A stretch of 64,000 bases of DNA from Heptranchias perlo (taxonomy: Eukaryota): the NCBI RefSeq assembly GCF_035084215.1, contig NC_090331.1, positions 72,416,001 to 72,480,000 on the forward strand. Direction: 5' to 3'. Shown here piece by piece: positions 1 through 64,000 of this stretch. Every line of letters begins with the position of its first letter. Positions within the stretch are counted from its first letter, which is position 1. Below the pieces are notes generated by a model. That model made no database searches. It worked only from the letters and a program-made list of their open reading frames with translations, and was not told where the DNA came from. The position numbers were made by a program, and so were the translations under genes.

Positions 1-312
1 TGTCAGAAAGGCACCTATCTGTTAGTCTCGGACCTCCTAGCCTCCTTTCAAGTGGCAGAAAAGAGAAGACCCAGAAATCCCAGCCCCTCGGGGTTGAAAT
101 CGGAAACTGTGGAAAATTGGAGGCCTGCAGTGTGAATGAAAGGTTTTAAAGTCTGACCAGCCTCCTGGGAGTGGCTTGGCCACTGACCCCCTCATCCCAC
201 CCCGGTAAAAAGGTGGAATGGGGGTGGGTTAGGGGTGGGTCTGAAATGGTTGAGATTTTGAATGCCCCCACCAGTCCCAACCCACCCGTTTTTCATTACT
301 AAAAACGTGCCA
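1..312. mobile_element. Right-hand part of the same TIR-type insertion in intron 2 of gene 1
   Basis: Aligns to 53554-53864. Confidence 0.65.
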
Positions 313-549
313 AATATTTCACCTAGTCTTTTAAGTTTGGATAATTAAACTGTTCATAACCAAGCTGTGTATCTTCATTATCACTACAAATATCAGGTAA
401 TTTCGAAATACCACACACAAAGCCTTAATACAAGTGAAAACAGCTGAAGTGTTTTCCCAGTTGACATTGACAAACTCAATTGCTCAGCAAGTTGTCATTA
501 ACTTGTCCTCAATCTGGGTAAAATATAAAAATCATAAAAGGTAACTTAC

Positions 550-894
550 ATATGGGTATGTGCGACATGACCTGATGTTGTCATTGAATCCCATCCAGCG
601 CTGGTAGTCAGGATATTCTCCTCTGCTCAGAGCATACTGATATCCCATGTAATTGGGTCTCTCATACAACACCCACCAGTCACTCTCAACACGGATGGAG
701 TTGCAGCGACTGAAGTAAGAGGACAGGTCAGCACAGTCAGTACTGCACTCGTAGTGCCGACCCTGGAAGTTCCTGTCTTCATAAAAGATGATCTGTGAAA
801 AGATATAGATTTGCAAATTAATAAATTCTCAAATTAGGGGATTGAAGAATTCTAATACAGAGTATAAAATCTGAGTTCTCCTTGCCTTTCCCAT
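550..894 (-). CDS. cryg: Gamma-crystallin gene 1 (type A), partial: exon 1 886-894 (MGK), exon 2 550-792; exon 3 lies outside the window
   Basis: ATG GGA AAG, then a 93-nt intron ending tttcacag, then a 243-nt exon ([40 protein letters not shown]...[12 protein letters not shown], two Greek-key motifs), then a GTAAGT donor. Symbol is family-level only. Confidence 0.93.
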
Positions 895-942
895 TTTGAG
901 CTCACAGTTAGACTGAATGTTTCACTGCTTCACACAGCTTGG

Positions 943-1022
943 TATTTATATGCTGGGCAGAAAGGCCTCTCTGGGCTGTATCTTTGTTATTCTAATGATT
1001 CAGGATTGAAACTCAGCAAAAA
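943..1022 (-). promoter_or_regulatory. Gene 1 proximal promoter: TATAAATA, SOX-like AACAAAG, AT-rich half-MARE TTTTTGCTGA
   Basis: TATAAATA at 943-950 (~50 nt upstream of the ATG), ctttgtt at 982-988, tcagcaaaaa at 1013-1022. SOX and large-Maf sites are established gamma-crystallin promoter elements. Assignment here is by motif only. Confidence 0.7.
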
Positions 1023-3060: not shown

Positions 3061-6000
3061 TAAAATCTAGTTTAAAATCTTTTAAAATCTAGTGTTAATT
3101 GCTATTAACTGTTAAGTATGATCGACTGTTTCAGTTCAATTTTAAACTTTAAATTTTGAAGTTTGTCAGGCCAAAGCAGAGACAAACTGGAGAGCTGCTG
3201 TCGTTCGTTAAATGGTTCGCTGGATTAAACTGGTTTCTGAAAGAGTCGCAGAGCAGGGCTGACTCATCTGAGTCACAAACAGTGGAAATAACAGGGGCCT
3301 GTGAGTGCAACGGCACTGAGTGCAGTGAGGACGGAGTGAACAACTTGAGAGTTTGGGAAGTGTGGGAGTTCGGTGAAGTGGGGGAAGGAGGTGCTGCTTT
3401 GCCTTGCTTTTCCTAACTTTTCCACAGAGCAGCGGCGGGCCTGAGCAGCAGCAGACTGAGAATGGGATAAAAGCAGCAGCATAAGACCATAAGAACATCA
3501 GAGATAGGAGAAGGAGTAGGCCATTCGGCCCCTCGAGCCTGCTCCGCCATTTAATGAGATCATGGCTGATCTGTTTTTTACCTCAACTCCACTTTCCAGC
3601 CCTTTCCCCATATCCTTGACTACCTTGCTGATCAAAAATTTGTCCAACTCAGCCTTGATTGTATTCAATGATTCAGCCTCCACAGCTTTTTGGAGTGACC
3701 CCTTATTCTGAGATTATGAAACCCAAGTTTTAGATTCCCCCATAAGGGATAACATCCTCTCAGCATCTACACTATCGATTCCCCTCAGAATCCTGTATGT
3801 TTCAATAAGATCTCTTCTCATTCTTCCAAACTCCAATGAGTATACACCCAAGCTGTTAAATCTTTCCTCATAAGACAACCCTTCCATACCCGGAATCAAC
3901 CGAGTGAACCTTCTCTGAACTGCCTCCAATGCAAGGATATCCTTCCTTAAATAAGGGCACCAGGACTGTACGCAGTACTCCAGGTGTGGCCTCACCAGCA
4001 CCCTGTACAGTTGTAGAATGACTTCCCTGCTTTTATATTCCATCCCCCTGGAAATAATGGCCACTATTCCATTTGCCTTCCGGATTACCTGCTGCACCTG
4101 TATGTTGACTTTTTGTGTTTCATGTACGAGGACACCCAGATCCCTCTGTACCGCAGCATTTTGCAGTATTTCTCCATTCAAATAACATTTTGCTTTTATA
4201 TTTTTCCTCTCAAAGTGGATGACTTCACATTTTCCCACATTATATTCCATCTGCCAAATTTTTGCCCATTCGCTTAACCTGTCAGTATCCCTTTGCAGAC
4301 ACTTTGTGTCCTCATCGCAATTTGCTTTTCCACCTATCTTTGTATCATCAGTAAATTTGGTCACATGACACTCTGTTCCTTCATCCAAGTCATTGATATA
4401 TATTGTAAATAGTTGAGGCCCCAGCACTGATCCCTGCGGCACCTCACTAGTTACATATCACCATTTTGAAAATGACCCTTTTATTCAGACTCTTTGTTTT
4501 CTGTTAGCTAGCCAGTCTTCTATCCATGCCAGTAAATTTCCCCCAACACCATGAGCTCCTATCTTGTGCAGTAATCTTTGATGTGGCACCTTATCGAATG
4601 CCTTTAGGAAATCCAAATGTACTGCATCCATTGGTTCCCCTTTATCCACCCTGCCCGTTACTTCCTCAAAGAACTCTAATAAATTTGTCAGACATGATTT
4701 CCCCTTCATAAAACCATGTTGACTCTCCTTGATTGTATTATGAGTCGCCAAACGTCCTGCTGTGACTTCCTTAATAATGGATTCTGGCATTTTCCCAATG
4801 ACAGATGTTAGGCTAACTGGTGTATAGTTATCTGCTTTCTGTCTCACTCCCTTCTTGAATAGGGGTGTTACGTTTGCGGTTTTCCAATCCGCTGCAACCT
4901 TCCCAGAATCTAGTGAATTCTGGAAGATGACAACCAATGCATCCACTATCTCTGCAGCCACTTCCTTTGAGACCCTTGGATGCAAGCCATAAGGTCCAGA
5001 GGACTTGTCAGCCTTTAGACCCATTAGTTTCCCTAGTACTGATTCTCTCGTGATAGTGATTGTTTTTAGATCCTCCCCCCACTTTGCCCCTTGATTTTCT
5101 ACTATTATTGTGATGTTATTAGTGTCTTCTACTCTGAAGACAGATACAAAATATCTGTTCAATTCCTCTGCCATTTCCTTGTTTTCCATTATTATTTCCC
5201 CAGTCTCATCCTCTGAGGGACCAATGTTTACATTAGCTACCCTCTTCCTTTTTATATACTTGTCGAAGCTTATTTTTTTCAGAAGACCTGCAATCAGAGA
5301 AAACTGCAGTGTGACGTCACAGGTGAGGCAGGTAAGTGATTGGTAGTGACTGTGGGCTAAGTTTTGAGTTAACATACAGCATATAACTAAATTTTAAAAA
5401 CTAAACTTAATTGAAATAATCTAATAAATTAAACAAGGAAAATAATGTGTTTAACTCTAAATTAATGAAATAAATAAAATAATGGGAGAACAAGAGATGT
5501 GTTCCTGCTGCAATATGTGGGAGCTTATGGACCTTTTTGTCCAGGGTGACTACATCTGCAGTAAGTGTCTGCGGCTCGAGGAACTTCGGCCTCGAGTTGA
5601 GGAGCTGGAGTTCGAGCTGCGGATGTTACGAGACATCAGGGAGGGAGAAAGCGACCTGGACCTTTTGCTCCACGAGGTAGTCACACTCCTTAGATTAGAT
5701 ACTTTAGAACTGACACATGGTCAGGGACAGGAGGGTGTGACTGTGAGTGAGGCAGGTTCGGGGGTCCAGTAGGTAGTATTGCAGGATCCTCAGTCCCTGC
5801 GCTTGTCCAATGGATTTGAGGTTCTTGCAACCCTTGTGGACAAGCGTGGGACTGCGTGGAGTGCGAGCAAACTGACCACCGCATCGTGGCACACGAAGCC
5901 GTTCAAGTGGGGGGAATGAAAAGGAAGGTGGTTGCAGTGGGCGACAGTATAGTTAGGGGGATAGACACTGTTCTGTGCAGCCAGGAGCATGAGTCCCGAA

Positions 6001-9000
6001 GACTATGTTGTCACCCCGGTGCCAGGGTGAAGGTTATCTCCTCCGGGCTGGAGATGAACTTGGAGTGGGAGGGGGAGGACCCTGTTGTCGTGGTCCATAT
6101 TGGTGCCAATGACATTGGTTGGACTAAGAAAAAGGTTCTACTGAGAGAGTTTGAGCAGCTAGGGACTAAATTAAAAAGCAGAACTACAAAGGTAATAATC
6201 TCTGGATTGTTACCTGAGCCACGAGCAAATTGGCATAGGGTCAATTAGATCAGAGGGATGAATGCGTGGCTCAAAGATTGGTGTGGGAGAAGTGGGTTTC
6301 GATTCATGGGGCACTGGCACCAGTACTGGGGAAAGAGAGAGCTGTTCCATTGGGACGGACTACACCTGAACCATGCTGGGACCAGAGTTCTATCAAATCA
6401 AATAACTGGGGAGGTAGATAGGGCTTTAAACTAAATAAGGGGCGGAGGAAGGGTCCCGCTGGAGAGAAATCCAGAATGTCAAAGAGAAAAGACAAGGAAG
6501 AAGTGCAGGAAAGTGATTGGGGTAAGGATAACCAGATTGTGTCAGGAAGGGACAGACCGTACAAACAAAAGAGTGCACTAACAAATAGAGTCCGGGTAAG
6601 AAAAATGGTAATAAGACTAATGGGGCTAGAGTACATAAAAATGTAAAGATGTCTAAAAATGTTAAAAAGACAAATCCAAAGGTACTGTATCTGAATGCAC
6701 GAAGCATTCGTAATAGAGTAAATGAATTAACAGCACAAATAGATGTAAACGGATATGATATAATTGTAATTACAGAGACTTGGCTGCAGGATGACCAATG
6801 CTGGAAGCTTAATATCCAAGGGTATTCGATATTTAGGAAGGACAGGCAAAAAGGAAAAGGAGCTGGGGTGGCATTGTTAGTAAAGGATGAGATCAGAGCA
6901 ACAGTGAGAAAGGATAATGGCTCAGAAAATCAAGATGTAGAATCAGTCTGGGTGGAGTTATGAAGCACCAAGGGGCAGAAAACAGTGGTGGGAGTAGTCT
7001 ATCGGCCTCCAAACAGTAATGGTAATGTAGGGGATGGCATCAAACAGGAAATTAGAGGCGCATGTAACGAGGGTACTCGAGTAATCTTGGGTGACTTTAA
7101 TCTACATACAGACTGGCCAAACCAAATGAATTCCTGGAGTGTGTACGAGATGATTTTTTCGACCAGTACATTGAGGAGCCAACCAGGGAACAGGCTATCC
7201 TAGATTGGGTATTGTGCAATGAGAAGGGATTAATAAATAATCTTGTTGTGCGGGTCCTTAGGGGAAGAGTGACCTTAACATGATAGAAGTCTTCATTAAG
7301 ATGGAAAGTGAAGTAGTCCAATCTGAAACTGGGGTCCTAAATCTAAAGAAAGGAAACTATGAAGGTATGAGGAGTGAGTTGGCTCTGATAGATTGGGAAG
7401 CTTCATTAAAAGGCATGATGGTGGATAGGCAATGGCTCACATTTAAGGAACGAATGCATGAATTGCAACAATTATACATTCCTTTCTGGCGCAAAAACAC
7501 AAAAGGAAAAGCGGCCCAACCATGGCTAACAATAGAAATTAAAGATAGTATTAGATCCAATGAGGAGTCATATAAAATTGCCAGAAAAAGCAGTTTAGAA
7601 TTCAGCAAAAAAGGACCAAGGGATTGATTAAGAGGGGAAAAATAGAGTACGAGAGTGAACTTGCAATGAACATAAAAGTGGACTGTACAAGCTTCTACAA
7701 GTATGTAAAAAGAAAAAGATTAGTGAAGGCAAAGGTAGGTCCCTTACGGTCAGAAATGGGAGAATTTATAATGGGGAACAGGGAAATGGCAGAGCAATTA
7801 AACAAATACTTTGGTTCTGTCTTCACAGAAGACGACACAGAAAACTTCCCAGAAATGCTCGAGGACCAAAGGACGAGTGAGAAGGAGGAATTAAAGGAAA
7901 TTAGTATTCGTAAAAACATAGTGCTGGGGAAATTAATGGGACTGAAAGTCGATAAATCCCCAGGGCCTAATAAATTGCATTCCAGAGCACTAAAAGAGGT
8001 AGCCATGGAAATAGTGGATGCATTAGTTGTCATCTTCCTAAATTCTATAGATTATGGAACAGATCCTATGGATTGGAGGATGGCAAATGGAACCCCACTA
8101 TTTCAAAAAGGAGGGAGAGAGAAAACAGGGAACGACCGATCAGTTAGCCTAACATCAATAGAAGGGAAATTGCTAGAGTCTTTGATGAAGGATGTGTTAA
8201 CAGGACCCTTAGAAAAAATAAACGGAATTAGACAAAGTCAACGTGGATTTATGAAAGGGAAAGCATTTTTGACAAACCTACAATAGTTTTTTGAGGATGT
8301 AACTGGTAGAATAGATGAGGGAGAACCAGTGGATGTGGTTTATTTGGATTTTCAGAAGGCCTTTGATAAAGTCCCACATAAGAGGTTAGTGGGCAAAATT
8401 AAAGCACAGGGAATTGGTTGTAATATACTGGCATGGATTGAAAATTGTTTAACAGACAGGAAACAGAGAGTCGGAATAAATGGGTCTTTTTCGGGGTGGC
8501 AGGCAGTGACTAGTGGGGTACCTCAGGGATCAGTGCTCGGGCCACAGCTATTCACAATATATATCATTGATTTGCATGAGGGAAGCAAATATAATATTTC
8601 CAAGTTTGCTGACGACACAAAACTCGGTGGGATTGTCAGTTGTGAGGAGGATGCAAAGAGGCTTCAAGGCAATTTAAACAAGTTGAGCGAGTGGGCAAAG
8701 TATAATGTGGAAAAATGTGAAGTTATCCACTTCGGAAGGAAAAACAGAAAGGCAGAGTATTATTTCAATGGTGATAGATTGGGAAATGGTTGATGTACAA
8801 AGGAACCTGGGTGTCCTTGTACACCAGTCACTGAAAGCAAACATGCAGTTGCAGCAAGCAGTTAGGAAGGCAAATGGTATGTTGGCCTTCATTGCAAGAG
8901 GATTTAAATACAGGAGCAAGGATGTCTTACTGCAGTTATACAGGGCCTTGATGAGACCACACCTAGAGTATAGTGTGCAGTTTTGGTCTCCTCACTTCAG

Positions 9001-9519
9001 AAAGGATCTACTTGCCATAGAGGGAGTACAGCGAAAGTTCACCAGACTGATTCCTGGGATGGCAGAACTGTCATATGAGGAGAGATTGGGTCGACTCGGC
9101 CTGTATTCACTCGAGTTTAGAGTGAGAGCGGATCTCATTGATACGTATAAAATTCTGATAGGGCGAGACAGACTGGATGCAGGGAGGATGTTTCCCCTGG
9201 CTGTGGGATCCAGAACGAGGGGTCACAGTCTCAGGATACGGGGTAGGACATTTAGGACTGAGATGAGGAGAAATTTCTTCACTCAGAGGGTGGTGAACCT
9301 GTGGAATTCTCTACGACAGAAGACTGTGCAGGCCAAGTCACTGAATATATTTAAGAAGGAGCGAGATAGATTTCTAGATGCAAAAGGCATCAAGGGGTAT
9401 GGAGAGAGAGCGGGAATATGGTATTGAAGTAGAGGATCAGCCATGATCATATTGAATGGCAGAGCAGGCTCGAACGACCGAACGGCCTACTCCTGCCCCT
9501 TTTTCTATGTTTCTCTGTT
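3061..9519 (+). mobile_element. Decayed full-length CR1-clade LINE (5' UTR, ORF1 zinc-finger/esterase, ORF2 APE-RT) hosting a nested antisense CR1; copy 1
   Basis: Edges defined by the empty site at ~51513. ORF1 at 5482-6432 (CxxC pairs, GDSIVRG, HIGANDI, DGLH). ORF2 at ~6649-9427 (YLNARS, ITETW, GDFN, YLDFQKAFD, GVPQGSVLGP, FADD). 3' tail ttctatgtttctctgtt. Multiple stops and frameshifts. Confidence 0.93.
3480..5279 (-). mobile_element. Nested 5'-truncated CR1 LINE (RT half of ORF2 plus 3' tail), copy 1
   Basis: RT ORFs 4485-5375 and 3714-4442. The 3' tail reads cataagaccataagaacat on the plus strand. Flanked by cagcag (3474-3479) and cagaag (5280-5285). Confidence 0.92.
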
Positions 9520-10158: not shown

Positions 10159-11937
10159 CTAGAAGTCCCTCATGCGCCTGAATGATCCGATAGTTGATCT
10201 GTAGCCACCCCAGTCACTGAATCTCCTGTATTCACCGGGTCTCATGAAGTACTGTCGGCCTCTATAGTTGGGATGTTCATAGAAGGTCCAGTAACCGTCC
10301 ATCACATGGCAGGAGTGAATGTCACGGTAGCGGAAACAATCGTAGACAGATGGACAGTCATCCATGAATTCCATCATCTGTCCTCCAAAGTCAGGCCTCT
10401 CGTAAATCCTCATTCTGTAGTTTCCACCTCTGTACTGTAATATAAAAAGATCATATTAGTGAAGAAACTATAAATGTTCAGTGTCTAGAAAGACAGCCTC
10501 CTGGTGAGAAGGGAGCTTAAGAAAGGTTGCAGATGATGTTTCTGAAAAGCAAGAGACCGTTCAGTGACATCTATTGAAGCAGCAGATTCTCTCCTAACTG
10601 AAGTCACCAAGCAGCTCTTGTGTAAATGATAAGATAAGATGCCTAAGTTCTGAGTCTCACTGCAGGTGGTGTTTTTACATTCCAAACTTCCAATCAAACA
10701 ATTAGGCATTCAATTCTAATTGGTTAATTATTGTGAACTAATTCATCCAATTATATTCCCGTTTTTTATTGAAACTTTAGACTGTTGCACAGATCACATG
10801 TTACCCAGTTTTTTTTATATTGGTTCATAGATATAGGCATCGTTGGCAAGGCCAGCATTTATTAACAATCCCTAATTGCCCTTGAGAAGGTAGTGGTGAG
10901 CCGCCTTCTCAAAACGCTGCAATCCGTGTGGTGAAGGTTCTCTCACAGTGCTGTTATGAATGTTACTTGCCACTGAATAGCCCCAACCTGGATGTTGTCC
11001 AGTCCTTGCTGCATGCGGGCTCGGACTGCATCATTATCTGAGGGGTTGCAAATGGAACTGAACACTGTGCAATCATCAGCGAACATCACCATTTCTGACC
11101 TTATGGTTGAGGGAAGGTCACTGATGAAGCAGTTGAAGATGGTTGGGCGCACGACACTGCCCTGAGGAACTCATGCAACAATGACCTGGGGCTGAGATGA
11201 TAAGCCTCCAACAACCACTACTATCTTCTTTTGTGCCAGGCATGACTCCAGCCACTGCAGAATTTTCCCCTGATTCCCATTGACTTCTATTTTACTCGGG
11301 CTCCTTGGTGCCACGCTCGGTTAAATGCTGCCTTGATGTCAAGGGCTATCATCACCTCTGGAATTCAGCTCTTTTAAGTTTGCATAATTATGCTCTTAAG
11401 AACCAAGCTGTGTATCTTTATTATTATAAGAAATATCAGGTCATTTAGATATAACACGCACAAAGCTTTACTACATGTGAAAAAAGCTGAAGTGTTTTCC
11501 CAGTTGACATTGACAAACTCAATTGCTCAGCAAGTTGTCATTAACTTGTCCTCAATCTGGGTAAAATATACAAACCATCAAAGGTAACTTACATATGGGT
11601 AGGTGCGACATGACCCGATGCTGTCATTGAATCCCATCCAGCGCTGGTAGTCAGGATATTCTCCCCTGCTCAGAACATACTGGTATCCCATGTAATTGGG
11701 TCTCTCATACAGCACCCACCAGTCACTCTCAACACGGATGGAGTTGCAGCGGCTGAAGTAAGAGGACAGGTCAGCATAGTCAGTACTGCACTCGTAGTGC
11801 CGACCCTGGAAGTTCCTGTCTTCATAAAAGATGATCTGTGGAAAGATGTAGATTTGCAAATTAATATTTTCTCAAACTAGGAGATTGAAGAGTTATAATA
11901 CAAAGTATAAAATCTGAGTTCTCCTTGCCTTTCCCAT
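10159..11937 (-). CDS. cryg: Gamma-crystallin gene 2 (type B), 175 aa; exons 11929-11937, 11593-11835, 10159-10434
   Basis: Classic gamma-crystallin 9/243/276-nt coding exon layout with phase-0 introns. Exon 3 acceptor is ttacag|TAC AGA GGT. Four Greek-key motifs and no in-frame stops. Resembles chondrichthyan gamma-crystallin S-1-like proteins (from recall, not searched). Confidence 0.95.
10809..11369 (-). mobile_element. LINE fragment (RT piece plus A-rich 3' end, internally deleted) in intron 2 of gene 2
   Basis: Minus strand encodes ..[26 protein letters not shown]. The plus strand starts with a T run followed by ggcaaggccagcatttatt, a LINE/SINE-type 3' end. Absent from the type-A intron. 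Confidence 0.85.
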
Positions 11938-11996: not shown

Positions 11997-12076
11997 TATT
12001 TATCTGCTGGGCAGAAAGGCCACTCTGGGCTGTATCTTTGTTATTCTAATGATTCAGGATTGAAAATCAGCAAAAA
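11997..12076 (-). promoter_or_regulatory. Gene 2 proximal promoter with TATA box changed to GATAAATA
   Basis: Aligns with the gene 1 promoter. Plus strand reads tatttatc at 11997-12004. SOX-like and half-MARE motifs retained. Confidence 0.65.
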
Positions 12077-12463: not shown

Positions 12464-13284
12464 AATACAAACATACGAATTAAGAGCAGGATTAGGCCAT
12501 TCGGCCTCTCGAGCCTGCTCTGCCATTTGATAAGATCATGGCTGATCTGATTGCGACCTCAACACTAATTTCCTATCTACCTACTATAACCTTTGACACC
12601 CTTCTTCATCAGGAATCCATCCAACTCAGCCTTAAAAATATTCAATGACCCTGCCTCCACCGCTCTCTGAGGAAGGGAGTCCCACAGACTCATTACCCTC
12701 TGCGAGATAAAAATTCTCCTCATCTCTGTCTTAAATGGGAGACCCCTTATCTTTAAACGGTGGCCCCGAGTTCGAGTCTCTCCCACAAGGGGATACATCC
12801 TCTCAGCTTCTGCCCCTTCTGCTCCCCTCAGGATCTTACATGTTTCAATATGACCACCTCTCATTCTTCTAAACTCCAGTCTATACAGGCCCAACTTGTC
12901 CAACCTTTCCTCATAAACATAAGATAACCCCCTCATCCCAGGAATCTGTTGAGTGAACCTTCTCTGAACCGCCACTAAAGCAATTATGTCCTTTCTTAAA
13001 TAAGGAGACCAAAACTGCACAAGGTATTCTAGATGTGGTCTCACCAATGCCCTGTACAACTGTAGCAAAACATCTCTACTTTTATATTCCATTCCCCTTG
13101 CAATAAATGACAATATTCCATTTGCCTTCCTGATCACTTGCTGCACCTGCATACTCACTTTGAGATTCATGTACTTGGACACCCAGATCCCTCTGCACCT
13201 CAGAGTTCTGCAATCTCTCTCCATTTAAATAATATACTGCTTTTCTATTCCTCCTGCCAAAGTGGACAAGTTCACCTTTTCCCA
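12464..13284 (-). mobile_element. 5'-truncated CR1 (~0.82 kb) upstream of type-B promoter, gene 2
   Basis: ORF2 C-terminus (RPHLEY..QFWSPYLRKD). CATATT duplicated at 12458-12463 and 13285-13290. Absent from type-A flanks, which have a single catatt (~1399, ~54946). Confidence 0.92.
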
Positions 13285-47493: not shown

Positions 47494-47552
47494 TTTGAGC
47501 TCACAGTTAGATTAGTAACTGACTGAATGTTTCACTGCTTCACACAGCTTGG

Positions 47553-50401: not shown

Positions 50402-52153
50402 CTGCCTTTTCCTGTTCATTGAGGAGTGATCCAGTTCGATTTTGAGCTCCCTCAAAGCAGCGCAACTTGGGTTGGGAACAAGGTTGTGCAGAGGATTGTA
50501 GCTGTGATACTTTGGCCCCAAACCTTTGCTGGATTTGACCCATAAATCTTGAAGCTTTTATAAGGAGGGGAAAGTAGACCAATGATTAAAAACAGATAAG
50601 AAACATTTATCATTGATCATTGTTAATGTCACTGACCCGAGGAATGTCACTTCCACACAGAATATCAATTATGTCTTTTAATAAAAATATTATTGAGGGT
50701 GCATTCCAAAAAGGAACCAGTTGCAGAGTTGTGATTGATTTGGTAAATCGTGCAAATGTGCACCTTACCTGACTGAGTGCAACAACAGAACCTCCTGTGA
50801 TTCATAAATTTGTATTTTATCAAACGAGCAACCTTTGTACTCGGGGTAGTTTAGAAGCAGCACTGTCAGTTACATCACTACATTTTTAAAATAAATCGTG
50901 GAACAAACAAAATACTGAGGGTGGAATTGACTTTCTGCACCTGATAAGTTAAAATAAAGAATACATGAAGTGAAATTCGTTATATAGATTTTTAATATAG
51001 TAAAATGTTAATGCACTACAGACTCATGATGTGACCAATTGTATATATTCTGCTGTGTGTTAAACCATGTTCTATGTATTAACAGCAATAAGTGGTTTCT
51101 GAAAACATACGAGCATACAAAAATGAAGGGTAGGAAAAGGCCAGCAGGTCCATCAAGCCTGCCCCACATGCATGATGGCTGGAGCATCACAACTGGACCT
51201 ATCCTACCTCCCCAAAGCCATGTTATCTCCTGCTATCTCCATCAATCCACTGTGAGACCACAACTTGTCCTTCACAGTGGAGAAGAGCTCAGTGATCCAA
51301 ACCTTCTCATTATTTTCACTGCCTGCTCTCTCAGGTTTCAGGGCTGGTCTCCCAGGCGATGTCGGAGCAGAGTGCACTTCAATCAAATCGACTCTCCATT
51401 AGAAGTGTCATTTTACTGACTGCAAGATAGCCAGGATTTCGTGAAAAATCCTTCTCACAGTCCATCCAATAAGTACACTGGAAATATTCTTCCTACTGAG
51501 TTTTGAGTTGTACAACCGACTTACATTGAGAACCACGAGCGTGTGTACAGTTACAGCATTGAATCAAATGTGTTTGTTGCATTTCCACAATGAGCAATAT
51601 ATCCACTTCTTCACTGAATGTGCTGAACATTGGAAATGGATTTCACGATAATTTTGTTTTCTGATGTGATCTTCAATGTTTTTACTTTAAAAAGGAGTTA
51701 CATTCTCTTGGAGTTGAGGACGAGAGTGAAGCTGGACTAAATGCTGTGCATATTTTCACTTTAAAAATGCCTGATTTTTATTCCAGGTTTCCTTTAGTCA
51801 ACTAAGATGATATAGAAATGAGAACCTTGGATTTCATTCATGGGACATGCAGCCCTCATTCACAGTGACTTACATTTTGATGCTCACTTTCATGAAGTCC
51901 ATGCATTGTATTGTCAATATCATGGACAACGTTCATTCCTAAATCTGCATTTACTGAATTGAAATAAATTCATTACCTGAGATCAAAGAATAAAATAATC
52001 GGCCTGAGACCCCGGCCTTGGATTTCCGTGAGATTTCTCTGTGATTTCCACTATATTCCAAAAGTAAGTGACAAACTCGGTTGTTAAGTAGGGGAGATTT
52101 TATTAATCTTAAGACCATTTCAGAGAGACAAAATCATGTTTTTCAAGAACAAT

Positions 52154-54440
52154 CTAGAAGTCCCTCATGCGCCTGAAAGATCCGATAGTTGAGCTGTAGC
52201 CACCCCAGTCACTGAATCTCCTGTATTCACCGGGTCTCATGAAGTGCTGTCGGCCTCTGTAGTTGGGATGTTCATAGAAGGTCCAGTAACCGTCCATCAC
52301 ATGGCAGGAGTGAATGTCACGGTAGCGGAAACGATCGTAGACAGATGGACAGTCATCTGTGAATTCCATCATCTGTCCTCCAAAGTCAGGCCTCTCGTAA
52401 ATCCTCATTCTGTAGTTTCCACCACTGTACTGTAATATAAATAAGATCATATTAGTGAAGAAACTATAAATGTTCAGTGTCTAGTAAGACTGCCTCCTTG
52501 TGAGAAGAGAGTATAGTAAGGGTTACAGATGATGTTTCTGAAAAGCAAGAGACCGTTCAGTGACATCTATTGAAGCAGCAGATTCTCTGCTCACTGAAGT
52601 CACCAAGCAGCTCATGTGTGAATGATAAGATAAGATGCCTAAGTTCTGAGACTCGCTGTAGGTGGTATTTTTACATTCCAAACTTCCAATCGAACAATTA
52701 GGCTTTAAGTTCTAATTGGTTAATTATTGTGAAATAATTCATCCAATTATATTCCTGTATTTTATTGAAACTTTGGACTGGTGCACAGATCATGGGCATC
52801 ATTTTGACTCCCAGCCGGGAATTGGGCGGGGGGCTCAAATTGCGGAAAGAAAACCCAGAAGTACGGCTTCCCTGGACATCCTCACGATATTGACGTAAGG
52901 ACGTCTTTTTTTGTTGGTTTGCCGTCCGACTGACTCGCCTGATTGACAGGCTGGTGTCAATCAGATGGGAAAACAGCCAGGGAGAGGATGTGTTCAGGTA
53001 AGTCTTCAGGTAAGTCTTTATTTGTATGGGTGGAGGGGAACATAAGGGACAGGGTTGGCACAGGGGGCATTCGAGCACAGGAGCATGGGGGCACAGCATC
53101 ATGGGGCACAGGGGCACGGGGACTCAGGGGCCATGGGTTGGAATGAGGCATGGGTTGGCACATGGACATGGGTTGGCATGGTGCATGCATTGGCAAGGGG
53201 GCAAGGGTTGGCAGGGGACGCCTGAGGGCAGTCAGTCATGGGCGGGAGGGATCGGGGGTCAGTCACAGACATCCACGAACTTTGGAGGGGTCAGGGGTCA
53301 TCCTGGGCGTCCGTGATTGTTGGGGGCAGGATCGTGGTTGGGGGTTGGGGGTCTGCGATTGTTGAGGGTGAGCGGAGATCGGGGGCAGGGATTCCTGACT
53401 GTGGGGAGGGGTCGGGGTTCGGGGGCACGTGTCCGCTATCATTGGGAGACGGGTCGGGATCATCGCGGGGGTTCAGTGATCATTGGGGGTTCGCTGCAGG
53501 TAGGCTGGTTGGGCCTGGGGGAAGCACTCCTGCTCCTCCGAACCCACAAGCTGTGTCAGAAAGGCACCTATCTGTTAGTCTCGGACCTCCTAGCCTCCTT
53601 TCAAGTGGCATAAAAGAGAAGCCCGGAAATCCCAGCCCCTCGGGGTTGAAATCGGAAACTGTGGAAAATTGGAGGCCTGCAGCGTCAATGAAAGGTTTTA
53701 AAGTCTGACCAGCCTCCTGGGAGTGGCTTGGCCACCCAGCCCCTCATCCCACCCCGGTAAAAAGGTGGAATGGGGGTGGGTTAGGGGTGGGTCTGAAATG
53801 GTTGAGATTTTGAATGCCCCCACCACTCCCAACCCACCCGTTTTTCATTACTGAAAGCGTGCCCGATATGTCACCTAGTCTTTTAAGTTTGGATAATTAA
53901 ACTGTTCATAACCAAGCTGTGTATCTTCACTATCACTACAAATATCAGGTCATTTCGATATACAAAGCCTTAATACAAGTGAAAACAGCTGAAGTGTTTT
54001 CCCAGTTGACATTGACAAACTCAATTGCTCAGCAAGTTGTCATTAATTTGTCCTCAATCTGGGTAAAATATAAAAATCATAAAAGGTAACTTACGTATGG
54101 GTATGTGCGACATGACCTGATGTTGTCATTGAATCCCATCCAGCGCTGGTAGTCAGGATATTCTCCTCTGCTCAGAACATACTGATATCCCATGTAATTG
54201 GGTCTCTCATACAGCACCCACCAGTCACTCTCAACACGGATGGAGTTGCAGCGGCTGAAGTCAGAGGACAGGTCAGCACAGTCAGTACTGCACTCGTAGT
54301 GCCGACCCTGGAAGTTCCTGTCTTCATAAAAGATGATCTGTGGAAAGATATAGATTTGCAAGTTAATAATTTCTAAAAATTAGGAGATTGAATAATTATA
54401 ATAAAAAGGATAAAATCTGAGTTCTCCTTGCCTTTCCCAT
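52154..54440 (-). CDS. cryg: Gamma-crystallin gene 6 (type A), 175 aa; exons 54432-54440, 54095-54337, 52154-52429
   Basis: Intact three-exon gene with A-type residues C23, N75, R77, plus D29, S86, T108, R117, H146. Its longer intron 2 contains a GC-rich insertion. Confidence 0.94.
52794..53864. mobile_element. G-rich non-coding insertion (~1.07 kb) with short imperfect terminal inverted repeats in intron 2 of gene 6; probable non-autonomous DNA transposon
   Basis: Begins GGGCATCATTTT and ends AAAGCGTGCCC. Flanks cat and gat (possible degenerate 3-bp TSD). Absent from type-B introns. Confidence 0.65.
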
Positions 54441-55481: not shown

Positions 55482-57027
55482 AATTTAAAACGGCCTTTTC
55501 CTGTTAATTGAGGAGTGATCCAGTTCTATTTTGAGCTCCCTCAAAGCAGCGCAACTTGGGTTGAGAACAAGGTTGTGCAGAGGATTGTAGCTGTGATACT
55601 TTGGCCCCAAACCTTTGCTGTATTTGACCCATAAATCATGAAACTTATATAAGGGGGGGAAAGTAGACCAATGATTAAAAACAGATAAGAAACATTAATC
55701 ATTGATCATTGTTAATGTCACTGACCTGAGGAAGATTACTTCCATAAAGAATATCAATTATGTCTTTTAATAAAAATATGACTGAGGTTGCATTCCAACA
55801 AGGAACCAGTTGCAGAGTTGTGATTGATTCAGCAAATCGTGCAAATGTGCACCTTACCTGACTGAGTGCAATAACAGAACCTCCTGTGATTCATAAATTT
55901 GTATTTTACCAAACGAGCAACCTTTGTACTCGGGGTAGTTTAGAAGCAGCTCTGTCAGTTACATCACTACATTTTTAAAATAAATCGTGGAATAAACAAA
56001 ATTTTCAGGATGGGATTGACGTTGTGCCCCTCATAAGTAAAAATAAAGAATACAGGAAGTGAAATTCGACATCTCGATTTTCAAAATTGTACAATGTTAA
56101 TCCACTACACACCAGTGACTTGGCCAATTGTACATTTTCTGCTCTGTATTAAACTCTGGAAACCATTCTGTGTATTAATGGCAATAAGTGGTTCCTGAAA
56201 ACATACGAACATACAAAAATGTAGGGTAGGAAAAGGCCAGCAGGTCCATCAAGCCTGCCCCACATGCATGATGGCTGGAGCATCACAACTGGACCTATCC
56301 TACCTCCCCAAAGCCATGTTATCTCCTGCTATCTCCATCAATCCACTGTGAGACCACAACTTGTCCTTCACAGTGGAGAAGAGCTCAGTGATCCAAACCT
56401 TCTCATTATTTTCACTGCCTGCTCTCTCAGGTTTCAGGGCTGGTCTCCCAGGCGATGTCGGAGCAGAGTGCACTTCAATCAAATCGACTCTCCGTTAGAA
56501 GTGTCATTTTCCTGACTGCAAGATAGCCAGGATTTCGTTAAAAATCCTTCTTGCAGCCCATCCAAGGAGTACCCTGGAAATATTATTCCTCCTTGGTTTT
56601 GACTTGTATAAAATCTAGTTTAAAATCTTTTAAAATCTAGTGTTAATTGCTATTAACTGTTAAGTATGATCGACTGTTTCAGTTCAATTTTAAACTTTAA
56701 ATTTTTAAGTTTGTCAGGCTGAAGCAGAGACAAACTGGAGAGCTGCTGTCGTTCGTTAAATGGTTCGCTGGATTAAACTGGTTCCTGAAAGAGTCGCAGA
56801 GCAGGGCTGACTCATCTGAGTCACAAACAGTGGAAATAACAGGGGCCTGTGAGTGCAACGGCACTGAGTGCAGTGGGGACGGAGTGAACAACTTGAGAGT
56901 TTGGGAAGTGTGGGAGTTCGGTGAAGTGGGGGAAGGAGGTGCTGCTTTGCCTTGCTTTTCCTAACTTTTCCACAGAGCAGCGGCAGACCTGAGCAGCAGC
57001 AGACTGAGAACGGGATAAAAGCAACAG

Positions 57028-58827
57028 CATAAGACCATAAGAACATAAGAGACAGGAGAAGGAGTAGGCCATTCGGCCCCTCGAGCCTGCTCCGCCATTT
57101 AATGAGATCATGGCTGATCTGATTTTTACCTCAACTCCACCTTCCTGCACTTTCCCCATATCCTTGACTACCTTGCCGATCAAAAATTTGTCTAACTCAG
57201 CCTTGATTGTGTTCAATGATTCAGCCTCCACAGCTTTTTGGAGTGACCCCTTATTCTGAGATTATGAAACCCAAGTTTTAGATTCCCCCATAAGGGATAA
57301 CATCCTCTCAGCATCTACACTATCGAGTCCCCTCAGAATCTTGTATGTTTCAATAAGATCTCCTCTCATTCTTCCAAACTCCAATGAGTATACACCCAAC
57401 CTGTTCAATCTTCCCTCATAAGACAACCCTTCCATACCCGGAATCAACCTCGTGAACCTTCTTTGAACTGCCTCCAATGCAAGGATATCCTTCCTGAAAT
57501 AAGGGCACCAGGACTGTACGCAGTACTCCAGGTGTGGCCTCACCAGCACCCTGTACAGTTGTAGAATGACTTCCCTGCTTTTATACTCCATCCCCCTGGA
57601 AATAAAGGCCACTATTCCGTTTGCCTTCCGGATTACCTGCTGCCCCTGTATGTTGACTTTTTGTGTTTCATGTACGACGACACCCAGATCCCTCTGTACC
57701 GCAGCATTTTGTAGTATTTCTCCATTCAAATAATATTTTGCTTTTTTATTTTTCCTCCCAAAGTGGATGACTTCACATTTTCCCACATTATATTCCATCT
57801 GCCAAATTTCTGCCCATTCGCTTAACCTGTCAGTATCCCTTTGCAGACACTTTGTGTCCTCATCGCAACTTGCTTTTCCACCTATCTTTGTATCATCAGT
57901 AAATTTGGTCACATGACACTCTGTTCCTTCATCCAAGTCATTGATATATATTGTAAATAGTTGAGGCCCCAGCACTGATCCCTGCGGCACCTCACTAGTT
58001 ACAGATAACCATTTTGAAAATGACCCTTTTATTCCGACTCTTTGTTTTCTGTTCGCTAGCCAGTCTTCTATCCATGCCAGTAAATTTCCCCCAGCTCCAT
58101 GAGCTCCTATCTTGTGCAGTACTCTTTGATGTGGCACCTTATCGAATGCCTTTAGGAAATCCAAATATACTGCATCCATTGGTTCACCTTTATCCACCCT
58201 GCCCGTTACTTCCTCAAAGAACTCCAATAAATTTGTCAGACATGATTTCCCCTTCATAAAACCATGTTGACTCTCCTTGATTGTATTATGAGTCTCCAAA
58301 TGTCCTGCTGTTACTTCCTTAATCATGGATTCTCGCATTTTCCCAATGACAGATGTTAGGCTAAGTGGTCTGTAGTTACCTGCTTTCGATCTCACTCCCT
58401 TCTTGAATAGGGGTGTTACATTTGCGGTTTTCCAATCCGCTGCAACCTTCCCAGAATCTAGTGAATTCTGGAAGATGACAACCAATGCATCCACTATCTC
58501 TGCAGCCACTTCCTTTAAGACCCTTGGATGCAAGCCATAAGGTCCAGGGGACTTGTCAGCCTTTAGACCCATTAGTTTCCCTAGTACTTTTTCTCTCGTG
58601 ATAGTGATTGTTTTTAGATCCTCCCCCCATTTTGCCCCTTGATTTTCTACAATTATTGTAATGTTATTAGTGTCTTCTACTCTGAAGACAGATACAAACT
58701 ATCTGTTCAATTCCTCTGCCATTTCCTTGTTTTCCATTATTATTTCCCCAGTCTCATCCTCTAAGGGACCAATGTTTACTTTAGCTACCCTCTTCCTTTT
58801 TATATACTTGTCGAAGCTTATTTTTTT
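57028..58827 (-). mobile_element. Nested antisense CR1, copy 5
   Basis: 436-aa RT ORF at 57262-58572 (FTDD). Flanks caacag and cagcag. Confidence 0.92.
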
Positions 58828-59029
58828 CAGCAGACCTGCAATCAGAGAAAACTGCAGTGTGACGTCGCAGGTGAGGCAGGTAAGTGATTGGTAGTGACTG
58901 TGGGCTAAGTTTTGAGTTAACATATAGCATATAACTAAATTTTAAAAACTAAACTTAATTGAATTAATCTAATAAATTAAACAAGGAAAATAATTTGTTT
59001 AACTCTAAATTAATGAAATAAATAAAATA

Positions 59030-59982
59030 ATGGGAGAACAAGAGATGTGTTCCTGCTGCAATATGTGGGAGCTTATGGACCTTTTTGTCCAGGGTAATGA
59101 CATCTGCAGTAAGTGTCTGCTGATCGAGGAACTTCGGCCTCGAGTTGAGGAGCTGGAGTTCGAGCTGCGGATGTTGCGAGACATCAGGGAGGGAGAAAGC
59201 GACCTGGACCTTTTGCTCCAGGAGGCAGTCACACCCCTTAGATTAGATACTTTAGAACTGACACATGGTCAGGGACAGGAGGGTGTGACTGTGAGTGAGG
59301 CAGGTTCGGGGGTCCAGGAGGTCGTATTGCAGGATCCTCAGTCCCTGCGCTTGTCCAATGGATTTGAGGTTCTTGCAACCCATGTGGACAAGCGTGGGAC
59401 TGCGTGCAGGATGAGCAAACTGACCACGGCATCATGTTGCACAAAGCCGTTCAAGTGGGGGGAGTAAAAAGGAAGGTGGTTGCAGTAGGCGACAGTATAG
59501 TTAGGAGGATAGACACTGTTCTCTGCAGCCAGGAGCATGAGTCCCGAAGTCTATGTTGCCAACCCGGTGCCAGGGTTAAGGTTATCTCCTACGGGCTGGA
59601 GAAGAACTTGGAGTGGGAGGGGGAGGACCTTGTTGTCGTGGTCAATATTGGTGCCAATGACATTGGTTGGACTAAGAAAAAGGTTCTACTGAGAGAGTTT
59701 GAGCAGCTGGGGACTAAATTAAAAAGCAGAACTACAAAGGTAATAATCTCTGGATTGTTACCTGAGCCACGAGCAAATTGGCATAAGGTCAATAAGATCA
59801 GAGGGATGAATGCGTGGCTCAAAGATTGGTGTGGGAGAAGTGAGTTTCGATTCATGGGGCACTGGCACCAGTACTGGGGAAAGAGAGAGCTGTTCCGTTG
59901 GGTCAGACTACACCTGAACCATGCTGGGACCAGAGTTCTATCAAATCAAATAACTAGGGAGGTAGATAGGGCTTTAAACTAA
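59030..59982 (+). pseudogene. CR1 ORF1 (Cys-rich zinc finger, coiled coil, SGNH/GDSL esterase), one frameshift; representative copy
   Basis: ORFs 59030-59467 (CSCC...ICSKC, LEFELRML) and 59404-59982 (VGDSIVRR, IGANDI, VRLHLN) overlap in different frames. Esterase-type ORF1 is established for some CR1-clade LINEs. Confidence 0.85.
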
Positions 59983-60196
59983 ATAAGGGGCGGAGGAAGG
60001 GTCCCGCTGGAGAGAAATCTAGAATGTCAAAGAGAAAAGACAAGGAAGCAGTGCAGGAAAGTGATTGGGGTAAGGATAACCAGATTGTGTCAGGAAGGGA
60101 CAGACCGTACAAACAAAAGAGTGCACTAACAAATAGAGTCCGGGAAAGAAAAATGGTAATAAGACTAATGGGGCTAGAGTACATAAAAATGTAAAG

Positions 60197-62990
60197 ATGT
60201 CTAAAAATGTTAAAAAGACAAATCCAAAGGCACTGTATCTGAATGCACGAAGCATTCGTAATAAAGTAGATGAATTAACAGCACAAATAGATGTAAACGG
60301 ATATGATATAATTGCAATTACAGAGACTTGGCTGCAGGGTAACCAAGGCTGGAAGCTTAATATCCAAGGGTATTCGATATTTAGGAAGGACAGGCAAAAA
60401 GGAAAAGGAGGTGGGATGGCATTGTTAGTAAAGGATGAAATCAGAGCAATAGTGAGAAAGGATAATGGCTCAGAAAATCAAGATGTAGAATCAGTCTGGG
60501 TGGAGTTATGAAGCAACAAGGGGCAGAAAACACTGGTGGGAGTAGTCTATAGGCCTCCAAACAGTAATAGTAATGTAGGGCATCAAACAGGAAATTAGAG
60601 GCGCATGTAACGAGGGTACTCGAGTAATCATGGGTGACTTTAATCTACATACAGACTGGCCAAACCAAATGAATTCCTGGAGTGTGTACGAGATGATTTT
60701 TTCGACCAGTACATTGAGGAGCCAACCAGGGAACAGGCTATCCTAGATTGGGTATTGTGCAATGAGAAGGGATTAATAAATAATCTTGTTGTGCGGGTCC
60801 TTAGGGGAAGAGTGACCTTAACATTATAGAAGTCTTCATTAAGATGGAAAGTGAAGTAGTCCAATCTGAAACTGGGGTCCTAAATCTAAAGAAAGGAAAC
60901 TATGAAGGTATGAGGAGTGAGTTGGCTCTGATAGATTGGGAAGCTTCATTAAAAGGCATGATGGTGGATAGGCAATGGCTCACATTTAAGGAACGAATGC
61001 ATGAATTGCAACAATTATACATTCCTTTCTGGTGCAAAAACACAAAAGGAAAAGCGGCCCAACCATGGCTAACAATAGAAATTAAAGATAGTGCTAGATC
61101 CAATGAGGAGTCATATAAAGTTGCCAGAAAAAGCAGCAAGCCTGAGGATTGGGAGCAGTTCAGAATTCAGCAAATAAGGGACAAGGGATTGATTAAGAGG
61201 GGAAAAATAGAGTACGAGAGTGAACTTGCAATGAACATGAAAGTGGACTGTACAAGCTTCTACAAGTATGTAAAAAGAAAAAGATTAGTGAAGGCAAAGG
61301 GAGGTCCCTTACAGTCAGAAACGGGAGAATTTATAATGGGGAACAGGGAAATGGCAGAGCAATTAAACAAATACTTTGGTTCTGTCTTCACAGAAGACGA
61401 CACAGAAAACTTCCCAGAAATGCTCGAGGACCAAAGGATGAGTGAGAAGGAGGAATTAAAGGAAATTAGTATTCGTAAAAACATAGTGCTGGGGAAATTA
61501 ATGGGACTGAAAGTCGATAAATCCCCAGGGCCGAATAAACTGCATTACAGAGCACTAAAAGAGGTAGCCATGGAAATAGTGGATGCATTCGTTGTCATCG
61601 TCCTAAATTCTATAGATTATGGAACAGTTCCTGCAGATTGGAGGATGGCAAATGGAAACCCACTATTTCAAAAAGAAGGGAGAGAGAAATCAGGGAACGA
61701 CAGATCGGTAAGCCTAACATCAATAGCAGGGAAATTGCTAGAGTCTTTGATGAAGGATGTGTTAATAGGACCCTTAGAAAAAATCAACGGAATTAGACAA
61801 AGTCAACGTGGATTTATGAAAGGGAAAGCATTTTTGACAAACCTACAAGAGTTTTTTGAGGATGAAACTGGTCGAATAGATAAGGGAGAACCAGTGGATG
61901 TGGTTTATTTGGATTTTCAGAAGGCCTTTGCTAAAGTCCCACATAAGAGGTTAGTGGGCAAAATTAAAGCACAGGGAATTGGTTGTAATATACTGGCATG
62001 GATTGAAAATTGGTTAACAGACAGGAAAGAGAGTCGGAATAAATGGGTCTTTTTCGGGGTGGCAGGCAGTGACTAGTGGGGTACCTCAGGGATCAGTGCT
62101 CGGGCCCCAGATATTCACAATATATATCAATGATTTGGATGAGGGAAGCAAATATAATATTTCCAAGTTTGCTGACGACACAAAACTCGGTGGGATTGTC
62201 AGTTGTGAGGAGGATGCAAAGAGGCTTCAAGGCAATTTAAACAAGTTGAGCGAGTGGGCAAAGTATAATGTGGAAAAATGTGAAGTTATCCACTTCGGAA
62301 GGAAAAACAGAAAGGCAGAGTATTATTTCAATGGTGATAGATTGGGAAATGGTTGATGTACAAAGGAACCTGGGTGTCCTTGTACACCAGTCACTGAAAG
62401 CAAACATGCAGTTGCAGCAAGCAGTTAGGAAGGCAAATGGTATGTTGGCCTTCATTGCAAGAGGATTTAAATACAGGAGCAAGGATGTCTTACTGCAGTT
62501 ATACAGGGCCTTGATGAGACCACACCTAGAGTATAGTGTGCAGTTTTGGTCTCCTTACTTAAGAAAGGATCTGCTTGCCATGGAGGGAGTGCAGCGAAAG
62601 TTCACCAGACTGATTCCTGGGATGGCAGAACTGTCATATGAGGAGAGATTGGGTCGACTCGGCCTGTATTCACTCGAGTTTAGAGTGAGAGCGGATCTCA
62701 TTGAAACGTATAAAATTCTGACAGGGCTAGACAGACTGGATGCAGGGAGGATGTTTCCCCTGGCTGTGGGATCCAGAACGAGGGGTCACAGTCTCAGGAT
62801 ACGGGGTAGGACATTTAGGACTGAGATGAGGAGAAATTTCTTCACTCAGAGAGTGGTGAACCTGTGGAATTCTCTACGACAGAAGACTGTGCAGGCCAAG
62901 TCACTGAATATATTTAAGAAGGAGCGAGATAGATTTCTAGATGCAAAAGGCATCAAGGGGTATGGAGAGAGAGCGGGAATATGGTATTGA
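60197..62990 (+). pseudogene. CR1 ORF2 (APE endonuclease plus reverse transcriptase), fragmented; representative copy
   Basis: Fragments 60197-60511, 60844-62076, 62069-62356 and 62268-62990 carry successive APE and RT motifs separated by stops and frameshifts. Confidence 0.9.
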
Positions 62991-63721
62991 AGTAGAGGAT
63001 CAGCCATGATCATATTGAATGGCAGAGCAGGCTCGAACGACCGAATGGCCTACTCCTGCTCCTTTTTCTATGTTTCTATGTTAACCGACTTACATTGAGA
63101 ACCATGAGCGTGTGTACAGTTACAGCATTGAATCAAATGAGATTTTTCATGTACACCTGAGCAATATATCCACTTCTTCACTGAAAGTGGTGAACATTGG
63201 AAATGGATTTCAATATAATATTGTTTTCTGATGTGATTTTCAATGTTTGTACTTTAAAAAGCAGTTACATTCTCTTGGAGTTGAGGACGAGAGTGAAGCT
63301 GGACTAAATGCTGTGGATATTTTTACTTTAAAAGTGCCTGATTCTTATTCCAGGTTTCCTTTAGTCAACTGAGATGATATAGAAATGAGAACCTTGGATA
63401 TCATTCATGGGACAAGCAGCCCTCATTCATAGTGACTTACATTTTGATGCTCACTTTCATGAAGTCCGTGCATTGTATTGTCAGTCTCATGGACAACGTT
63501 CATTCTTAAATCTGCATTTACTGAATTGAAATCAATTCATTAGCTGAGATCAAAGAGGTACAATACTCGGCATGAGACACCAGCCTGAGATTTCCATGAG
63601 ATTTCTCTGTGATTTCCACCATTATCCAAATTTAAATGACAAACTTGTTTGTTAAGTAGAGGAGATTTTATTAATCTTAAGACCATTTCAGAGAGACAAA
63701 ATCATGTTTCTCAAGAACAAT

Positions 63722-63997
63722 CTAGAAGTCCCTCATGCTCCTGAATGATCCGATAGTTGATCTGTAGCCACCCCAGTCACTGAATCTCCTGTATTCACCG
63801 GGTCTCATGAAGTACTGTCGGCCTCTGTAGTTGGGATGTTCATAGAAGGTCCAGTAACCGTCCATCACATGGCAGGAGTGAATGTCACGGTAGCGGAAAC
63901 AATCGTAGACAGATGGACAGTCATCCATGAATTCCATCATCTGTCCTCCAAAGTCAGGCCTCTCGTAAATCCTCATTCTGTAGTTTCCACCTCTGTA
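63722..63997 (-). CDS. cryg: Gamma-crystallin gene 7 (B-like), exon 3 only; exons 1-2 lie beyond the window end
   Basis: Acceptor CAG at 63998-64000. 276-nt exon [16 protein letters not shown]...FRSMRDF* with B-type C117 and a private R171S. Confidence 0.92.
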
Positions 63998-64000
63998 CTG

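What the first reader, a model, noticed from the sequence alone, without database searches (positions are those of the whole stretch)
1..64000. Recently amplified gamma-crystallin array in which decayed transposons were copied along with each gene
Seen: at least 7 genes, with all five complete ones intact. B proteins are identical or differ by one residue (gene 2 = gene 5, gene 3 = gene 4). Subtracting TE inserts leaves a ~4.0-kb core, both for an 11.85-kb B unit and for the 6.44-kb unit 45715-52154. LINE junctions and disablements (e.g. TGA after VWVEL, the ORF1 frameshift, the frameshift after RLGNG) are shared by all copies, so the LINEs inserted once and were duplicated with the gene. Known: gamma-crystallin families are expanded in fishes with hard, high-index lenses. 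Inference: a young dosage amplification by unequal crossing-over, possibly helped by the long LINE homology.
Basis: partly seen in the sequence, partly recalled or inferred. Interest (0 to 1): 0.7.

Follow-up and report, generated by a model that had tools for sequence, protein, structure and literature searches.

The report
Shark lens-crystallin array with hybrid units
This is the youngest corner of a roughly 50-gene shark eye-lens protein cluster, a kind already described: three near-identical 11.85-kb repeats are hybrids of two older repeat types, likely joined by a misaligned crossover just outside a dead transposon that was then copied along as a passenger.

Summary
In detail: seven gamma-crystallin genes, five complete and open; gene 2 = gene 5, gene 3 = gene 4; TE-free cores 4006 and 4002 bp. 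The window is part of a 0.86-Mb shark cluster (53 of 74 exon-2 loci intact), a kind published as a duplication hotspot (PMC11979771). The scan noted a similar skate array before.
Corrections: (1) The LINE block is absent from the 6.44-kb unit. (2) The three 11.85-kb units are hybrids: B-type up to 14493, A-type from 14810. The founding crossover lay outside the long LINE; a later exchange lies inside it. (3) Units differ by 92-149 substitutions, so they are unlikely to be assembly duplicates, but may be millions of generations old. (4) Dosage is untested: amino-acid changes are depleted (2 seen, 12 expected), but genes 2 and 3 carry TATA-to-GATA, and 21 loci are broken.
Beyond a 250-kb block, introns align no better than shuffled DNA while fourfold sites differ about 10%, pointing to exon-limited gene conversion on an old array. 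Intron 1 has a GC donor in 27 intact genes; three public models of such genes have wrong N-termini. An LTR family is about 100-fold enriched locally, unexplained.

The parts
550..894 (-). gene 1 (A type; g33): exon 2 550-792, exon 1 886-894; exon 3 lies left of the window
3062..9519 (.). LINE block, copy 1 (A-long unit)
10159..11937 (-). gene 2 (B type; g34): exon 3 10159-10434, exon 2 11593-11835, exon 1 11929-11937, GC donor on 93-nt intron 1
   Evidence: intron ends match joints of a spliced paralog contig
10810..11369 (.). high-copy repeat in intron 2, at this place in all B genes of the window
11997..12004 (-). TATA box changed to GATAAATA (also gene 3, at 23840)
12465..13287 (-). 823-bp 3' LINE fragment upstream of B genes (copies 24301-25123, 36163-36985, 48021-49891)
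14494..14809 (.). tract holding the founding crossover of the B-long unit: B-type left of it, A-type right of it; made of two short old dispersed-repeat remnants
14909..21355 (.). LINE block, copy 2: 430-bp left piece, minus-strand RT LINE piece (15341-17100), plus-strand decayed CR1-type LINE (about 17100-21355; esterase ORF1, endonuclease, RT)
21995..23773 (-). gene 3 (B; g35): exons 21995-22270, 23429-23671, 23765-23773
26744..33218 (.). LINE block, copy 3
33858..35635 (-). gene 4 (B; g36): exons 33858-34133, 35291-35533, 35627-35635
38606..45075 (.). LINE block, copy 4; like copy 3 at its left end, like copy 5 over its right 4.6 kb
45715..47493 (-). gene 5 (B; g37): exons 45715-45990, 47149-47391, 47485-47493
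48591..49640 (.). solo LTR, 1050 bp, TG...CA ends, 4-bp target duplication, inside the LINE fragment
51505..51520 (.). empty (pre-insertion) site of the LINE block in the 6.44-kb unit
52154..54440 (-). gene 6 (A; g38): exons 52154-52429, 54095-54337, 54432-54440; TATAAACA
56610..63082 (.). LINE block, copy 5 (A-long unit)
63722..63997 (-). exon 3 of gene 7 (B; g39); rest right of the window, intact

Best explanation
The window is the youngest part of a shark gamma-crystallin gene cluster, and its three 11.85-kb repeats are hybrids of two older unit types that were likely joined by one unequal crossover just outside a dead LINE and then likely multiplied by further unequal crossovers, carrying the LINE as a passenger. 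Steps: (1, shown) a 250-kb block (C7:72.40-72.63 Mb) is built from an A gene + LINE block + B gene dimer repeated several times. (2, inferred from filled and empty sites) the LINE block inserted once, into the spacer between an A gene and the next B gene. (3, breakpoint shown, mechanism inferred) the upstream spacer of a B gene mispaired with that of an A gene and crossed over within 14494-14809, giving B gene + B spacer + A-type LINE block. (4, mosaic shown, mechanism inferred) the new unit went to three copies and kept exchanging with neighbours, once within the LINE block, which is the only long near-identical stretch that A-long and B-long units share. (5, inferred) purifying selection keeps the proteins near-identical; many copies are probably kept for protein quantity in the lens, but turnover is birth-and-death. 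(6, inferred) in the older outer cluster the exons alone are likely homogenised by gene conversion.
For: Self-alignment and unit table. Cluster map: 74 exon-2 loci in 860 kb, 53 intact, one more gene at 71.98 Mb, none in 72.86-72.90 Mb. TE junction map of the dimer. Switch: 29 of 30 diagnostic sites B-type left of 14500, 9 of 9 A-type right of 14800 (same result with window units alone). Exchange inside the LINE: unit 4 vs unit 3 differ at 2, 5, 3 sites per 600 bp in 14959-16758, then unit 4 vs unit 6 at 1-5 sites while 3 vs 4 reach 18. Selection: 2 nonsynonymous vs 6 synonymous segregating changes among the 5 window B genes; 11.8 expected from non-coding rates, Poisson p=0.0006. Published cluster with the same layout, gamma-S gene 1-2 Mb away (PMC11979771 sections 15, 22).
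Against: No read spans two units, so tandem order rests on the assembly. No lens RNA: the one spliced contig from a matching sample fits a GT-donor paralog (g55, 11 of 14 listed differences), not a window gene. The crossover tract is low in divergence across all units (2-3%), so the breakpoint cannot be narrowed and a long conversion tract would look the same. The eya4-like gene reported inside the catshark cluster was not found on this contig.
Confidence: 0.8

Rival explanations
1. One reading: the long LINE homology drove the amplification, and selection for dosage fixed the new B copies.
For: TEs are 66% of a B-long unit and one exchange maps inside the LINE block; amino-acid changes are depleted; PMC11979771 argues for selection on quantity.
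Against: Founding crossover is outside the LINE. LINE-free units duplicate too (genes 5 and 7 units, 32 differences in 6438 bp). Genes 2 and 3 have GATAAATA; a consensus TATA is missing in 6 of 11 broken genes but 6 of 53 intact ones (Fisher p=0.004). 6 of 22 loci in the young block are broken.
Confidence: 0.3
2. The B-long triplication is a near-neutral by-product of a recombination-prone array, and the new copies are on their way to becoming pseudogenes.
For: TATA change in 2 of 3 copies; 21 of 74 loci broken; B proteins carry changes rare elsewhere in the cluster.
Against: All frames, splice sites and poly(A) signals intact; nonsynonymous deficit even among the three B-long genes (1 vs 4 synonymous, binomial p=0.005), though part of that variation predates the triplication.
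Confidence: 0.3
3. The B units are assembly duplications or merged haplotypes.
For: No spanning reads available; contigs from a matching sample show only majority alleles at several B-specific sites.
Against: Three B-long units differ pairwise by 92, 111 and 149 substitutions in 11.8 kb with mosaic sharing, more than two haplotypes allow and above the 0.2% diversity reported for another shark (PMC10587355, passage); no N gaps in 860 kb; short-read contigs cross the LINE left junction with 0 differences (possibly the assembly's own sample, so not independent).
Confidence: 0.04
4. Low synonymous divergence in the outer cluster comes from strong constraint on synonymous sites, not gene conversion.
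For: Spliced contigs from two other organisms differ from gene 2 at only 12 of 430 and 24 of 487 exon letters, so these exons are slow between species as well.
Against: Fourfold sites differ at 19 of 37 for the outlier paralog g17 but 1 of 50 for g3, 421 kb away with unalignable flanks; GC at fourfold sites is only 0.37-0.47.
Confidence: 0.2

Closest known systems
Chondrichthyan gamma-crystallin 'duplication hotspot' cluster (PMC11979771; sections 15 and 22 read whole, passages; supplements not seen)
   Same: One dense cluster of about 1 Mb, tens of near-identical genes, pseudogenes, gamma-S gene 1-2 Mb away on the same chromosome, no sign of protein diversification.
   Different: 53 intact loci here against 40 in catshark; no eya4-like gene found; that paper gives no unit-level mechanism and its main text does not discuss gene conversion or unequal crossing-over (term search).
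Concerted evolution of mammalian gamma-crystallin genes (Plotnikova et al. 2007; title seen in a reference list only, paper not held)
   Same: Gene conversion among clustered gamma-crystallin paralogs.
   Different: Four to seven genes (recalled) against more than 50; here whole-unit duplication and exon-only homogenisation sit in one cluster.
Teleost gammaM-crystallins (PMC13643694, passages)
   Same: Expanded fish lens gamma-crystallins, 174-175 aa; zebrafish gammaM7 is among the top PDB hits.
   Different: Methionine is only 5.7%; the shark genes belong to a separate chondrichthyan clade per PMC11979771.
CR1 LINEs of elasmobranchs (PMC13343379, passages)
   Same: Esterase-type ORF1, endonuclease and RT domains; CR1-group elements cover 22-34% of elasmobranch genomes.
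   Different: These copies are dead and multiplied by DNA duplication, not retrotransposition; no RT tree was built.

Membership tests
Vertebrate gamma-crystallin | Two Greek-key domains, each on one exon, behind a 3-codon exon 1 | tested here: met
   Pfam Crystall on exons 2 and 3; exon structure; joints of a spliced paralog contig at both intron ends
Vertebrate gamma-crystallin | Lens expression | not testable with these tools
   No lens-labelled run; RNA contig fits another paralog
Gamma-S crystallin (public name 'S-1-like') | Closest to gamma-S rather than gamma-B/M | tested here: not met
   Exon 3 ranks gamma-B and gammaM7 above gamma-S; a separate gene at C7:70.90 Mb ranks gamma-S first
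Teleost gammaM | High methionine content | tested here: inconclusive
   9-10 Met of 175; the review gives no threshold
Chondrichthyan duplication-hotspot cluster | Tens of genes in one cluster of about 1 Mb | tested here: met
   74 exon-2 loci in 0.83 Mb plus one gene at 71.98 Mb
Chondrichthyan duplication-hotspot cluster | Gamma-S gene on the same chromosome 1-2 Mb away | tested here: met
   C7:70.897-70.899 Mb
Chondrichthyan duplication-hotspot cluster | eya4-like gene inside the cluster | tested here: not met
   EYA domain hits on 4 other contigs only; reported for catshark alone, so not clearly defining
Chondrichthyan duplication-hotspot cluster | Species-specific clade of recent copies | tested here: inconclusive
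   Quick protein tree, careful search unfinished, 5 of 75 branches well supported
CR1 LINE | Esterase ORF1 plus endonuclease and RT in ORF2 | tested here: met
   PF13472, PF03372 (below curated cut-off not an issue: 29 vs 24.5 bits), PF00078
CR1 LINE | RT phylogeny within the CR1 clade | not tested
   no tree built

The most novel reading that the evidence does not exclude
Most of the shark gamma-crystallin 'duplication hotspot' is an old array whose exons are kept alike by gene conversion, so species-specific clades overstate recent duplication; only a 250-kb block really turns over, by hybrid-forming crossovers, and it spread a GC splice donor, weakened TATA boxes and attracts one LTR family about 100-fold.
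Probability: 0.5. Interest if true: 0.5.

Novelty: new member of a known kind. Interest (0 to 1): 0.3.

Why it matters
The cluster type is published, so the headline is not new. What this locus adds is a nucleotide-level record of how a unit is born (a hybrid crossover beside, not within, the long LINE), a caution that exon trees misdate such arrays (803 of 1176 gene pairs have intron ends near shuffled-level similarity yet 10.3% fourfold-site divergence), and an annotation point: 3 of 3 public models checked that match GC-donor genes have invented N-termini. Copy-specific SNPs and a natural TATA variant make the dosage hypothesis directly testable with lens RNA.

Tried and rejected
No RNA holder listed on record; guessed-RNA contigs show splicing of paralogs only, so use of the GC donor is inferred, not shown. 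Contig depth was not used as copy number. Contigs cannot phase the 316-bp crossover tract. Target-site preference of the LTR family for the CR1 motif: rejected genome-wide; none evident in the first 100 of 899 listed ends, and junction patterns gave no CR1-motif hit outside the array (one search excluded a quarter of flanks by design). One search found nothing because of a mistyped pattern. Internal frames of the neighbouring full-length LTR element: no Pfam match, class unknown. The idea that the crossover tract is a conserved enhancer: not supported, it matches dispersed repeats and another 100-bp bin is as low in divergence. Protein tree poorly resolved. Literature: no relevant paper for Heptranchias + crystallin, crystallin + GC-AG intron, gamma-crystallin + pseudogene + TATA + promoter, crystallin + conversion + unequal crossing; the library lacks most subscription journals, and supplements of PMC11979771 (gene trees) were not seen and may bear on the conversion claim. 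No earlier scan notes near this place.
Full report
Observation. A self-comparison shows an 11.85-kb period at 96-98% identity across 1.4-48.6 kb and its return at 53.5-64 kb. Seven minus-strand gamma-crystallin genes touch the window; genes 2-6 are complete and open. The LINE disablements named are shared by the five window copies; the VWVEL stop is missing from three older copies further right.

Context. The window is C7:72416001-72480000 of a 3.25-Gb genome. Exon 2 is 100% identical to a public protein labelled gamma-crystallin S-1-like of Heptranchias perlo, and most top hits are sharks and rays. In 860 kb around it (no N) there are 74 exon-2 loci; 50 passed a frame-and-splice test and 3 more on recheck, 21 are broken or partial. 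One more gene lies at 71.98 Mb and none in 72.86-72.90 Mb. A gamma-S gene lies 1.1 Mb to the left. This matches the cluster published for catshark: 40 genes in 1 Mb, gamma-S 2 Mb away, called a duplication hotspot kept for protein quantity (PMC11979771, sections 15 and 22 read whole; also cited as a known cluster in 10.1101/2025.06.08.657570, passages). The eya4-like gene of that cluster was not found here.

Anatomy of the young block. From 72.40 to 72.63 Mb the array is a repeated dimer: A gene, spacer, 6.4-kb LINE block, B gene, 823-bp LINE fragment, spacer with the empty LINE site. The block holds a decayed CR1-type LINE (esterase, endonuclease, RT; compare PMC13343379, passages). Same junctions in all filled copies and an empty site in others show one insertion, later duplicated (inference).

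Birth of the 11.85-kb unit. Genes 2-4 are B genes followed by the A-type LINE block. With four A and four B reference spacers, 29 of 30 diagnostic sites left of 14500 are B-type and 9 of 9 right of 14800 are A-type; with window units alone the last B site is 14493 and the A run starts at 14810. The crossover therefore lies 100-400 bp left of the LINE, in a tract of short old repeat remnants that differs by only 2-3% among units. Later exchange did use the LINE: unit 4 resembles unit 3 up to about 16.7 kb and unit 6 beyond (0.4% over the plus-strand LINE). LINE-free units also duplicate (genes 5 and 7, 32 differences in 6438 bp). So the LINE is a passenger and at most a later facilitator.

Real or artefact. 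The three B-long units differ by 92, 111 and 149 substitutions with mosaic sharing. Two haplotypes cannot give three such copies, and diversity in another shark is 0.2% (PMC10587355, passages). Short-read contigs of one sample cross the left LINE junction without a difference but cannot phase the hybrid, show only majority alleles at several B-specific sites, and may come from the assembled animal.

Age. At 7e-10 per generation (CI 1.4-14.1e-10; PMC10587355) 0.8-1.3% would be 6-9 million generations if all differences arose after duplication. That is an upper bound, because exchange imports older variants; identical tracts (0 of 823 bp between units 2 and 3; 0.1% between the LTRs of units 5 and 7) show the latest exchanges are much younger.

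Selection and dosage. Among the five window B genes there are 6 synonymous and 2 nonsynonymous segregating changes; non-coding DNA predicts 11.8 nonsynonymous (p=0.0006). pN/pS is 0.09 there and 0.34 over 50 genes. Against a simple dosage reading: genes 2 and 3 read GATAAATA, and loss of a consensus TATA marks 6 of 11 broken genes with a locatable exon 1 against 6 of 53 intact (p=0.004). No lens expression could be tested; the one spliced contig from the matching sample fits g55 best.

GC donor. Intron 1 starts with GC in 27 of 53 intact genes, including all window genes. Retention would stop the frame, and these genes show purifying selection (ratio 0.31, p=4e-9), so the donor is likely used (inferred). 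Public models P0039, P0045, P0052 equal g46, g25-27 and g59 over the last 172 residues but carry other N-termini.

The outer cluster. Prompted by an earlier scan note on a skate array, I compared exons with flanks. Outside the young block flanks and introns differ from gene 4 by 22-38% (shuffled control 36%), synonymous differences by 5-17%. Over 49 genes (g17 left out, and three intact genes found later not included), 803 of 1176 pairs have intron-2 ends near shuffled level yet 10.3% fourfold-site divergence; g3, 421 kb away, differs at 1 of 50 such sites. Exon-limited gene conversion is the likely cause; constraint on synonymous sites is not excluded, since transcripts of two other organisms differ by only 3-5%. 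PMC11979771 does not discuss conversion in its main text.

Unexplained. The solo LTR at 48591-49640 sits at the same nucleotide of the LINE fragment as a full-length element of opposite orientation at g32, and a third copy sits at the homologous motif of another LINE. Twelve exact LTR ends fall in 250 kb, about 100 times the genome mean. No genome-wide preference for that motif was found.

Verdict. Real, a new member of a known kind; first reading partly supported; interest 0.3.

Noticed in passing
window 48591-49640; G000:C7:72403096-72410308; C7:72492251-72493297: Three apparently independent insertions of one LTR family at one CR1 motif, two at the same paralogous nucleotide in opposite orientations; family about 100-fold enriched in 72.40-72.65 Mb; no genome-wide motif preference; internal frames have no Pfam match.
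   Followed up: partly
window 11836-11928 and paralogs: GC-AG intron 1 in 27 of 53 intact genes; three public protein models of such genes have other N-termini.
   Followed up: yes
window 12004, 23840, 54496: TATA box altered in genes 2, 3 (GATAAATA) and 6 (TATAAACA); TATA loss is enriched in broken genes.
   Followed up: partly
G000:C7:72302795-72337624: Second young triplet (g25-g27) with identical proteins; two 11.61-kb units differ at 18 sites; candidate copy-number variant or haplotype artefact.
   Followed up: partly
G000:C7:72041751-72154712: Block of 12 exon-2 loci on the opposite strand, with its own intron family and higher pN/pS (0.59).
   Followed up: partly
G000:C7:72172981-72175775: Divergent old paralog (g17) inside the cluster, groups with bony-fish sequences in the quick tree.
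   Followed up: no
window 13557-13796 and copies: Degenerate 20-bp minisatellite in every upstream spacer, 12-13 copies; one LTR element further right is inserted in it.
   Followed up: no
G000:C49:1971829-1973118; C7:70897244-70899173: Single gamma-type genes outside the cluster: a gamma-S gene on C7 (tested) and another on C49 (type not tested).
   Followed up: partly
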